Shown here one piece after another: positions 33,001-36,000 of a stretch of 64,000 nucleotides of DNA. Location: NCBI RefSeq assembly GCF_011045215.1, contig NZ_CP049201.1; one strand, 5' to 3'. Numbering within the stretch: position 1 is the stretch's first letter; every line of letters starts with the position of its first letter. The position numbers are program-made. This DNA comes from Escherichia coli. GTDB lineage: Bacteria > Pseudomonadota > Gammaproteobacteria > Enterobacterales > Enterobacteriaceae.

Positions 33001-36000
33001 CCCGTCCGATTTGGTCATCAACAAAGTCATTACAGGCAAAATAGAGCGGATGGTGATAAAGCCCGTCATCACCGACTGGTGACGGCATTGCCTGTGCCCA
33101 TAAACGGTGATGTTCCGGTTTGTTTGCCAGGTCATCCTGTGCTTTCTCGCCCAGATCGTAATAAAAATCTGCGTATTTCTCTAAATACTCCACCGGGCAG
33201 GTGAACGGGTGATGCGGTTCGTCATACGAAACCACCATCAGGAAAGGCTCGTCTGTGCGCGCAGGCTGTTGCAGAAAATCCACCGCCCGATTGCTGATAC
33301 GATGCGCCCAGGTGAAGGTTTCGTCGATATGGTTCGCCTGTAAATCTTCGACGCTGTTTAGGCCATTGCGCCACAGGCTAATCTCTTTCTCCGTCAGTTC
33401 GCTAAGATAGTTCGCCCCATCGAACCAGTAATCAGCATCCCACTCCGGCGGACACTCGCCAGTGCCGAAATAGTCATGACCGTCGAGATGCCATTTGCCG
33501 ATGTAACAGGTGTGATAGCCCGCATCCTTAAAGTAGCGCCCCATAGTGGAAATGTTTTTGCCTGGCGCGACGTTGTTGGTCCACGGGCCGGACTGGTTAG
33601 CGTAGATACCGGTAAACAGCCCGGCGCGCGCCGGTGTACAAACCGGTGAACAGGTGTAGGCGGAGTTAAAGCGAATACCTTCCGCCGCCAGACTATCAAT
33701 ATTTTGCGTATTCAGCGGCTTACCGCTATAGCAACCGACCATATTGGTGGCCTGGGTATCGGTCATGATGAACAGAAAATTGGGGCGTTTCATAGGCTAT
33801 CCTTCGCGTCGGGAGTAAAGGTTACGGCTGGGTCGTGACGATGCCGCCAGCTGTCAAAAATCAGGTAGACAATCACTACGGCGGCAATGAAATAACTGAT
33901 CATCGCTAACCAGCGCGTACCGTAGCCGCCGAATTCAGCCAGCCCGGCATAGACGCCAATCATCGCGAACAGGATGCCAATTGACGCGATCTTGACGTTT
34001 TTCCACGGTTTCATGTCCACCGCAAACGCATCTTTGAAGGTGAACGGCGTGGCGCGCGGTTTGATAAAACCGATCACCAGCATCACGACCACGTTGATGC
34101 AGAACGTACAGGCCAGCACATAGAGGAAATGGAAGTCGAACTTCACCAGATAGTTGATGGTGATGTAGCTGATTATGCCAATCCCCATCGCCACTTTTGC
34201 CGCCAGCGCCGGGATGCGCGGGAAGAAAAAGCCCATAATATAATGATGATGGTAACCAGCGGCACGTTGTAAATGCCGTTGAGCTGTTTCATCCAGCTAT
34301 ACAGCCCCTGCGGCGCGTTGGCGATCCACGGAGCTACCAGCACCGAAACGATAGCGATAAAGAAACCAAATTTGCGCCCGACGGTGACCAGCTGCTGCGG
34401 CTCGGCATTCTGGTTAATGATGCGACGGTAAATACCCATACTGAATAACGTACTGGCGCTATTCAGAAAGCCGTTGAAGGTACTGATCACCGCACCAAAT
34501 AACACCGCGCCGAAGAAACCCACCAGTGGCACTGGCAGAACGTTATTGACCAGTGTCGGGTAGGCCATGTCGGCTTTCGGTAGATCCTGATACAGATGAA
34601 ACGCAATCAACCCTGGCAGCACCAGTACCAGCGGGTCGAGCATTTTCAGCACCGCCGTTAACAGCGCCCCCTTTTGCCCTTCCGCCAGGCTTTTTGACGC
34701 CAGCGTGCGTTGCACGATGCCCTGATTTGTACACCAGTAAAAGGTGTTCACCAGAATTAAACCGGTAAATGCCGCGCCAATCGGCAAGGGATCGGTCGGG
34801 CCACCGACTGAGTTTAATTTCTCGGCGTGGACGGTGGTAATTTGCTCAATGCCCTGCATAAAGCTGCCCTTGCCCATCGCGATCAGGCCAAATACCGGCA
34901 CCATCAACCCGCCGATAACCAGCCCAATACCGTTGATGGAGTCCGCCACTGCCATTGCGCGCAGTCCGCCGATCACCGCATACAAAATTCCCGCCAGACC
35001 AAGCAAAATTACCAATAGCCAGATAGCCGCACCGTGAGAAATCTGTAGCGATTCCCCGACGTGAAACAGGCTGTTGAGCGCCAACGCGCCGGAGTAGAGA
35101 ACAATCGGCAGAAAGCAGACGCCGGTGGCAATGAGGAAGCAGAAGTCGATGATAATACGCGTCGTTTTATCATAACGTTCCTCCAGAAAATCGGGGATGG
35201 TGGCAATGCCGCGCTTCAGATAGCGCGGTAAAAAGATTAGCGCGAGGAAGATCAGCGTCACCGCTGAAGTCACTTCCCAGCCCATCACCGACATGCCGCT
35301 TTTGTAGGCCTGCCCGGAAAGACCAACCAGTTGTTCCGTGGAAAGATTCGTTAACATTAACGAAGCGGCAATAACCGGCGCTTTTAGTGAACGTCCGGCA
35401 AGAAAATAGCCTTGTTGCGATCCGGTATCTGTTTTGCGAACCTTCCACCAGGTGATGATCGCCACCAGCAGCGTAAAACCGACAAAACTCAAGATTTGTA
35501 ACGAATTCATCTCATAGCCCTTATTTATGTTTATGTCCCGGACGCATGAATATAGGGAGAGGTAAAATGCGTCGGGTCAGGCAGTCAGATTCTTAAAATA
35601 CAAACGTCGTATCCCTGAACGGATTGTTTTCTGTTAAGTTCAGGTTGTGAGCATAATTCGCCGGAGGGATATTAAAATGAATGGAAAATTGCAAACTTCA
35701 GATGTAAAAAACGAAACTCCATACAATATTCCCTTATTGATTAACGAAAATGTGATCTCCAGCGGAATTTCTCTGATCTCGCTCTGGCATACCTACGCCG
35801 ACGAGCATTACCGGGTGATCTGGCCGCGGGACAAGAAGAAACCGCTTATCGCCAACTCATGGGTTGCGGTGTATACCGTACAAGGATGTGGGAAAATTCT
35901 TTTAAAGAATGGCGAACAAATAACTCTGCATGGCAACTGTATTATATTTTTAAAGCCAATGGATATTCACTCTTATCACTGTGAAGGTTTAGTCTGGGAA

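What the first reader, a model, noticed from the sequence alone, without database searches (positions are those of the whole stretch)
34235..34244. yidK inactivated by a 5-bp tandem duplication (ATAAT-ATAAT)
The symporter gene is split into two overlapping ORFs and its length is 5 bp over a multiple of 3. The frames diverge exactly at a tandem ATAATATAAT, consistent with a slipped-strand duplication. This is either a genuine pseudogene or a sequencing error; the neighbouring sulfatase genes yidJ and yidF are intact.
Basis: seen in the sequence. Interest (0 to 1): 0.4.

Follow-up and report, generated by a model that had tools for sequence, protein, structure and literature searches.

The report
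Young frameshift pseudogene of yidK
One E. coli strain carries a private 5-base tandem duplication that breaks the reading frame of yidK, a sodium-coupled transporter gene with no known substrate; this is real but ordinary recent gene decay.

Summary
Window 34235-34244 reads ATAATATAAT. yidK (minus strand, 33790-35510) is 1721 nt, which is 1716+5. It is split into a 445-aa ORF (423 native residues plus 22 out-of-frame) and a 148-aa ORF that starts at native Met424.

- **The duplication is derived and private.** All 5114 complete E. coli genomes that carry this stretch have a single ATAAT. The duplicated junction is absent from the metagenome contigs, while the wild-type junction occurs in 48 of them.
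- **It is present in raw reads.** An assembly made separately from SRA run SRR11014969 is 100% identical to the window over 30.9 kb, duplication included. An assembler artefact is therefore unlikely.
- **It is very young.** Deleting one copy restores a 571-aa protein identical to the common YidK allele WP_001087117.1. Every other nucleotide difference is synonymous.
- **The likely effect is loss of function.** The frameshift removes four conserved C-terminal hydrophobic segments. It also uncouples the overlapping start of the downstream sulfatase gene yidJ.
- **It is not unusual for this gene.** Other E. coli lineages carry independent yidK frameshifts (a 1-nt and an 11-nt deletion), and 311 of 5426 genomes lack the gene.

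This is ordinary gene decay and of low interest. One correction: yidF is not a sulfatase. It is a 165-aa partial relative of a sulfatase maturase.

The parts
33790..35510 (-). yidK, frameshifted (1721 nt = 1716+5); solute:sodium symporter family
   Evidence: orthologue annotated yidK
34235..34244 (.). 5-nt tandem duplication ATAAT-ATAAT (ATTAT-ATTAT on the coding strand, gene nt 1267-1276). Wild type has one copy.
34173..35510 (-). N-terminal ORF, 445 aa: 423 native residues, then ILWAFSSRASRRWRQKWRWGLA, with a premature stop at 34173-34175
33790..34236 (-). C-terminal ORF, 148 aa. It starts at the native Met424 codon and encodes native residues 424-571. No Shine-Dalgarno sequence is visible upstream.
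34226..34230 (-). T5 run on the coding strand, just after the duplication. It is the only obvious place where a spontaneous -1 slip could return ribosomes to the native frame (inference only).
   Evidence: sequence
33790..33793 (-). ATGA overlap of the yidK stop codon and the yidJ start codon. Coupling is lost when translation ends 380 nt upstream.
32300..33793 (-). yidJ, intact sulfatase-family gene downstream in the same operon
35677..36570 (+). yidL, intact divergent AraC-family regulator gene
30502..30999 (-). yidF, 165 aa, same length as in other E. coli. It is a partial relative of anaerobic sulfatase maturase, not a sulfatase.

Best explanation
This is a genuine, recent, strain-private frameshift in yidK. 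A spontaneous 5-nt tandem duplication (ATTAT to ATTATATTAT at codon 424) arose in this lineage. Translation now leaves the native frame after Ile423, adds 22 unrelated and strongly basic residues, and stops 126 codons early. The product lacks four conserved C-terminal hydrophobic segments and is most likely a non-functional or unstable transporter. Ribosomes now stop 380 nt before the yidJ start, which normally overlaps the yidK stop as ATGA. Expression of the downstream sulfatase is therefore probably reduced as well. Shown: the lesion, its derived and private status, its presence in a read-based second assembly, and its youth. Inferred: loss of transport, polarity on yidJ, and the mutational mechanism.
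For: Lesion and frame. Derived and private: 0 of 5114 complete E. coli genomes carry it; the junction has 0 hits in metagenome contigs against 48 for the wild-type junction; 0 hits in the species-representative genomes; the exact 445-aa product is on one contig among about 15 billion proteins. Present in reads: Logan contig SRR11014969_39 equals window 14632-45510 with 0 mismatches and 0 gaps, and the contig runs unbroken through the site. Young: the repaired ORF encodes a protein identical to WP_001087117.1, and all 7 or 12 nucleotide differences from two intact alleles are synonymous. Lost part matters: residues 424-481 are almost all invariant across E. coli, Citrobacter, Klebsiella and Enterobacter YidK; four hydrophobic segments (431-450, 456-486, 504-527, 530-554) lie after the break; Met424 aligns to vSGLT Leu444 at the end of the helix carrying Gln428. 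Dispensable gene with repeated decay: independent 1-nt and 11-nt deletions occur in other lineages, and 311 of 5426 genomes have no match. Coupling: ATGA overlap.
Against: The Logan assembly may come from the same reads as the window's assembly. If so, it excludes an assembler or polishing artefact but not an error shared by the reads, or a mutation acquired during laboratory culture. Only one sample carries the lesion, so there is no population-level support. Loss of function is not demonstrated. The truncated protein keeps the SSF Pfam domain almost entirely (positions 1-395 of 406), so residual activity cannot be excluded. No substrate or phenotype is known for YidK.
Confidence: 0.87

Rival explanations
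1. Sequencing or assembly artefact: the strain really has one ATAAT and an intact yidK.
For: The lesion is seen in only one sample. The repaired gene shows no other sign of decay, which is also what an artefact would give. A second frameshift in the window lies in an A8/A7 homopolymer, a typical error context.
Against: A separate k-mer assembly of run SRR11014969 gives the same 5-nt duplication and the same A7, inside a 47.8-kb contig that does not branch at the site. As general knowledge, a 5-nt non-homopolymer insertion is not a usual error mode of any current platform. About 50 other genes in the window are collinear and open.
Confidence: 0.07
2. Footprint of a mobile element: an element that makes 5-bp target-site duplications (for example IS2, the Tn3 family, Tn7 or Mu; from general knowledge) inserted here and later excised, leaving both copies of the target.
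For: There is a 5-nt direct repeat with no flanking microhomology to explain slippage.
Against: The two copies are directly adjacent, with no base of element sequence between them. From general knowledge, excision in E. coli normally either restores the single copy or leaves element remnants, and these elements do not leave clean footprints. No IS element is seen near the site in the window.
Confidence: 0.02
3. The locus is still functional. Either ribosomes slip -1 at the T5 run just after the duplication and make a 573-aa near-native protein, or the 423-residue core and a separately translated 148-residue C-terminal piece (which starts at native Met424) work together as a split transporter.
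For: The downstream ORF begins exactly at the native Met424 codon. A T5 run lies 6 nt after the duplication, where a -1 slip would restore the native frame. The truncated product keeps 395 of 406 SSF profile positions.
Against: No Shine-Dalgarno sequence precedes the ATG. There is no X XXY YYZ heptamer. The arrangement is absent from all 5114 other genomes, so it is not a conserved recoding site. The only promoter-like match nearby is at chance level.
Confidence: 0.04

Closest known systems
E. coli YidK (WP_001087117.1; NCBIfam NF007790 solute:sodium symporter family transporter)
   Same: Same locus and synteny (yidL | yidK-yidJ, then yidI, yidH, yidG, yidF). After one ATTAT is removed, the protein is 100% identical.
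   Different: The window allele has 5 extra nucleotides at codon 424 and cannot encode the 571-aa protein.
vSGLT, the Vibrio parahaemolyticus sodium/galactose symporter (PDB 3DH4, 2XQ2)
   Same: Closest solved relative by sequence: E 1e-53, aligned over residues 6-480. It shows where the break falls, at the end of the helix that carries vSGLT Phe424 and Gln428. The roles of those residues are recalled from the structure papers and were not tested here.
   Different: YidK has no known substrate. It has Lys408 where vSGLT has Gln428, so its sugar specificity cannot be inferred.
Other naturally frameshifted yidK alleles in E. coli
   Same: The gene is split into an N-terminal piece of about 400 aa and a C-terminal piece of about 165 aa by small indels 70-135 nt upstream of this site. 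yidJ and the flanks are intact.
   Different: The lesions differ: a 1-nt deletion in a GGG run near gene nt 1132 (L065), and an 11-nt deletion at nt 1188-1198 (L066). The 165-aa C-terminal fragment that such alleles leave is indexed in 138 blocks of the collection. The 5-nt duplication is seen in one sample only.

Membership tests
Solute:sodium symporter family (Pfam PF00474 SSF; NCBIfam NF007790) | Significant match to the SSF profile | tested here: met
   The 445-aa product matches PF00474 at E 3.6e-49, profile positions 1-395 of 406.
Solute:sodium symporter family (Pfam PF00474 SSF; NCBIfam NF007790) | Equivalog-level match of the full protein to the YidK-type model | tested here: met
   The protein identical to the repaired product scores 857 bits against a cut-off of 401.
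Solute:sodium symporter family (Pfam PF00474 SSF; NCBIfam NF007790) | One uninterrupted ORF that encodes all transmembrane segments | tested here: not met
   The frame breaks at codon 424, and four hydrophobic segments fall in another frame.
Frameshift pseudogene (recent gene decay) | ORF interrupted relative to intact orthologues by an indel whose length is not a multiple of 3 | tested here: met
   A 5-nt insertion relative to intact yidK.
Frameshift pseudogene (recent gene decay) | The lesion is the derived state | tested here: met
   A single copy in 5114 of 5114 E. coli genomes that hold the stretch. The 571-aa form is conserved in Citrobacter and Klebsiella.
Frameshift pseudogene (recent gene decay) | The lesion is present in the organism and not only in one assembly | tested here: inconclusive
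   The Logan assembly of SRR11014969 is identical, but it may derive from the same reads. Read pile-ups cannot be inspected with these tools.
Frameshift pseudogene (recent gene decay) | Loss of protein function | not testable with these tools
   Only inferred, from the loss of conserved C-terminal segments.
Programmed ribosomal frameshift or recoding site | The frameshifted arrangement is conserved among relatives | tested here: not met
   0 of 5114 genomes share it.
Programmed ribosomal frameshift or recoding site | Slippery heptamer X XXY YYZ in the overlap | tested here: not met
   Reading the sequence shows only a T5 run (GCT TTT TCT in the zero frame) and no canonical heptamer. A stimulatory RNA structure was not tested.
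Simple-sequence contingency (phase-variable) locus | A repeat tract of several units whose copy number varies among strains | tested here: not met
   The wild type has one unit, and no length variation at the site was seen in the 5114 genomes.
Transposon excision footprint | Target-site duplication that flanks element-derived residue | tested here: not met
   The copies are directly adjacent with nothing between them.

The most novel reading that the evidence does not exclude
The broken gene may still work. One route is a naturally split SSS transporter: an 11-helix core ending in a basic tail, plus a separately made 148-residue C-terminal piece that starts at native Met424. The other route is low-level -1 slippage at the T5 run right after the duplication. 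Either would show that the peripheral C-terminal helices of an SSS transporter can be supplied in trans, or that they are dispensable.
Probability: 0.04. Interest if true: 0.3.

Novelty: new member of a known kind. Interest (0 to 1): 0.07.

Why it matters
It matters little beyond annotation. yidK in this strain should be marked as a pseudogene (frameshifted) rather than called as two genes, and yidJ may be under-expressed. It adds one more independent lesion to a gene that E. coli lineages repeatedly lose. That pattern suggests the uncharacterised yidK-yidJ sulfated-substrate pathway is needed only in some niches. No open question becomes testable because of this finding.

Tried and rejected
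- **148-aa C-terminal product.** I first checked whether its exact matches meant the same split exists in many samples. It does not. Those contigs are wild-type sequences that happen to begin 0-2 bases before the Met424 codon. L008 has a different 14-nt gap and L009 has Ns.
- **New promoter.** The duplication creates TATAAT on the + strand, antisense to yidK. The scan found no promoter-like site there. The single match in the region, on the minus strand, is below the shuffle expectation.
- **AlphaFold model of YidK.** Built from a 9-sequence alignment with at least 88% identity, it came out at mean pLDDT 34 and pTM 0.21. The model is unusable and no fold search was run. Its helices merely agree with the hydropathy segments.
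- **yidK integrity in metagenome contigs.** Six other contigs have indels, but several are at about 2x coverage, so I did not count them as biological.
- **Literature.** The papers I read contain nothing on YidK function, and no paper mentions SRR11014969.
- **Shigella-like genome decay.** I considered this because the best identity to any complete E. coli genome is about 99.0%. No IS element was found among the window's genes, and only 2 of about 52 shared genes are broken.

Full report
**What is in the sequence**

Window 34235-34244 reads ATAATATAAT on the + strand. The gene lies on the minus strand. It shows as two overlapping ORFs, 34173..35510 (445 aa) and 33790..34236 (148 aa). Start to stop spans 1721 nt, which is 1716+5.

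The first ORF translates as native YidK through Ile423. It then reads ILWAFSSRASRRWRQKWRWGLA and stops. The second ORF starts at the ATG that is the native Met424 codon. Deleting one ATTAT from the coding strand gives a clean 571-codon ORF.

A 5+5 tandem repeat is not remarkable by itself. The window holds 65 such positions, against 62.5 expected by chance. The case therefore rests on comparison with other genomes.

**Comparison with other genomes**

- The 1.9-kb region matches yidK and yidJ in 5115 of 5426 complete E. coli genomes. The best hits are 99.4% identical and span 1896 bases against 1901 in the query.
- A pairwise alignment shows one 5-nt gap with identical flanks.
- An 81-nt probe across the site hits 5114 genomes, none above 93.8% identity. 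That value is 76/81, the gap alone. Rows sampled from the best to the weakest all span 76 bases.
- The duplicated junction has no exact match in the 100,044 species-representative genomes.
- It has no exact match in the metagenome contigs either. The wild-type junction is found in 48 metagenome contigs, which serves as a positive control.
- YidK is 571 aa in Citrobacter and Klebsiella as well.

The single copy is therefore ancestral, and the duplication is derived and private to this source.

**Real lesion or error?**

The exact 445-aa product exists once in the 15-billion-protein collection. It sits on a 47.8-kb contig that Logan assembled from SRA run SRR11014969. Two stretches fetched from that contig together equal window 14632-45510 with no mismatch and no gap, duplication included.

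This excludes an artefact of one assembler or polishing step. The contig does not break at the site, so there is no evidence that a competing wild-type sequence caused a branch there.

One caveat remains. The run may be the very data behind the window's assembly, so an error shared by the reads, or a mutation picked up in culture, is not formally excluded. As general knowledge, a 5-nt non-homopolymer insertion is not a typical platform error.

**Age of the lesion**

The repaired ORF encodes a protein identical to WP_001087117.1, the allele of strains Combat11I9 and AHM8C212RI. The 7 and 12 nucleotide differences from those two alleles are all synonymous. The gene has accumulated nothing else, so the event is very recent.

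In the rest of the window, about 50 genes shared with a reference strain are collinear and open. The only other broken gene is an accessory hypothetical gene, with A8 shortened to A7. This is not a Shigella-like decaying genome.

**Likely consequences**

- YidK carries the SSF domain. The intact protein, which is identical to the repaired product, meets the NCBIfam equivalog NF007790 at 857 bits against a cut-off of 401.
- Its closest solved relative is the Vibrio sodium/galactose symporter vSGLT (E 1e-53). Met424 aligns to vSGLT Leu444, 16 residues after Gln428 in the same hydrophobic stretch. The role of Gln428 in sugar binding is recalled from memory, not tested here.
- Hydropathy places four more hydrophobic segments after the break, at 431-450, 456-486, 504-527 and 530-554.
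- Residues 424-481 are almost entirely invariant across four enterobacterial genera. The lost part is therefore under purifying selection, and its loss most likely inactivates or destabilises the transporter. This is an inference.
- The truncated product does keep 395 of 406 SSF profile positions, so residual activity cannot be ruled out.
- The yidK stop overlaps the yidJ start as ATGA. With translation ending at 34173, 380 nt upstream, coupling is lost. Polarity on the sulfatase gene is plausible but also inferred.

**Mutational mechanism**

The duplicated unit has a unique phase: C-ATTAT-ATTAT-G on the coding strand. It has no flanking microhomology, and the wild type has only one copy. A de novo tandem duplication during replication is the default reading, but the sequence gives no specific support for classical slippage between pre-existing repeats.

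A transposon footprint is unlikely, because nothing lies between the two copies. From general knowledge, E. coli excision events do not leave clean target duplications.

The site is not a contingency locus, since no length variation was seen across 5114 genomes. It is not a conserved recoding site either. The TATAAT created on the antisense strand has no -35 partner, and the promoter scan reports nothing there.

**Context**

- yidK is dispensable and decays repeatedly. 311 of 5426 complete genomes have no match.
- Other samples carry independent frameshifts: a 1-nt deletion near gene nt 1132 (L065) and an 11-nt deletion at nt 1188-1198 (L066). The 165-aa C-terminal fragment that such split alleles leave is indexed in 138 blocks of the collection.
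- One paper lists yidK among 'extended-core' genes (PMC12595684). Others list yidK, yidJ and yidL among genes enriched in one ecotype of cryptic Escherichia clades. The papers I read give no substrate or phenotype for YidK.

yidF is intact only in the sense that it has the usual 165-aa length. It is not a sulfatase. It has no Pfam hit. It matches only positions 160-273 of anaerobic sulfatase maturase models, at 75 bits against a cut-off of 349. RefSeq names it a radical SAM protein.

**Verdict**

This is a genuine, young, strain-private frameshift pseudogene of yidK (confidence about 0.87). It is ordinary and of low interest. Its practical value is for annotation.

Noticed in passing
window 22893-24217 (-), indel at 23919-23927: A second frameshift. 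An accessory hypothetical gene (441 aa in strain AHM8C212RI) has A7 where the reference has A8, so the first stop falls at codon 106. The Logan contig shows the same A7. The probed stretch of the gene matches only 60 of 5426 complete genomes, and the gene is annotated 'frameshifted; internal stop' in strain TUM14759. It and its 431-aa neighbour (24632-25927) have no NCBIfam or PADLOC hit.
   Followed up: partly
window 30502-30999 (-): yidF (165 aa) looks like a fragment-sized relative of anaerobic sulfatase maturase. It matches only model positions 160-273 and lacks the N-terminal radical-SAM part. This length is the normal state in the E. coli references examined.
   Followed up: partly
L065-L068 (other E. 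coli samples), yidK: Independent yidK frameshifts in other E. coli samples: a 1-nt deletion in a GGG run near gene nt 1132, and an 11-nt deletion at nt 1188-1198. Both leave a 165-aa C-terminal ORF. In L066-L068 the neighbouring 6-phospho-alpha-glucosidase gene also appears split.
   Followed up: yes
window 10640-17660: An accessory island between adeD and uhpT: LacI-family regulator, PTS IIC and IIA components, a GH1 glycosidase, a LamB-type porin and a second DUF1198 (yicN-like) gene. It is covered to at least 80% in only 25 of 5426 complete genomes.
   Followed up: partly
window 1-4468 (-): The start of the giant inverse autotransporter adhesin gene air/eaeX (iatC). It is open for 1489 codons up to the window edge. 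Its internal repeats give a median of 17 places per genome that has a match.
   Followed up: partly
window 6086-6746 (+): A RelE/ParE-family toxin gene paired with an HTH antitoxin gene, between nepI and yicN. Both are intact, and the toxin gene is 100% identical to the reference.
   Followed up: no
window 36567-37886 (-): The 6-phospho-alpha-glucosidase gene has a 3-nt in-frame deletion relative to strain AHM8C212RI (439 aa against 440 aa) and is otherwise open.
   Followed up: no
window 22000-46000: The source lineage is poorly sampled. The best identity to any of 5426 complete E. coli genomes is about 99.0% over 24 kb, with per-gene identity ranging from 92.7% to 100%. The exact 431-aa protein from 24635-25927 occurs on a single contig in the whole protein collection.
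   Followed up: partly
window 34246-34273 (-): A promoter-like match (TTTACA, 16 nt, CATCAT) ends about 10 nt upstream of the Met424 ATG. It is at or below chance level for the region and is presumably also present in the wild type.
   Followed up: no
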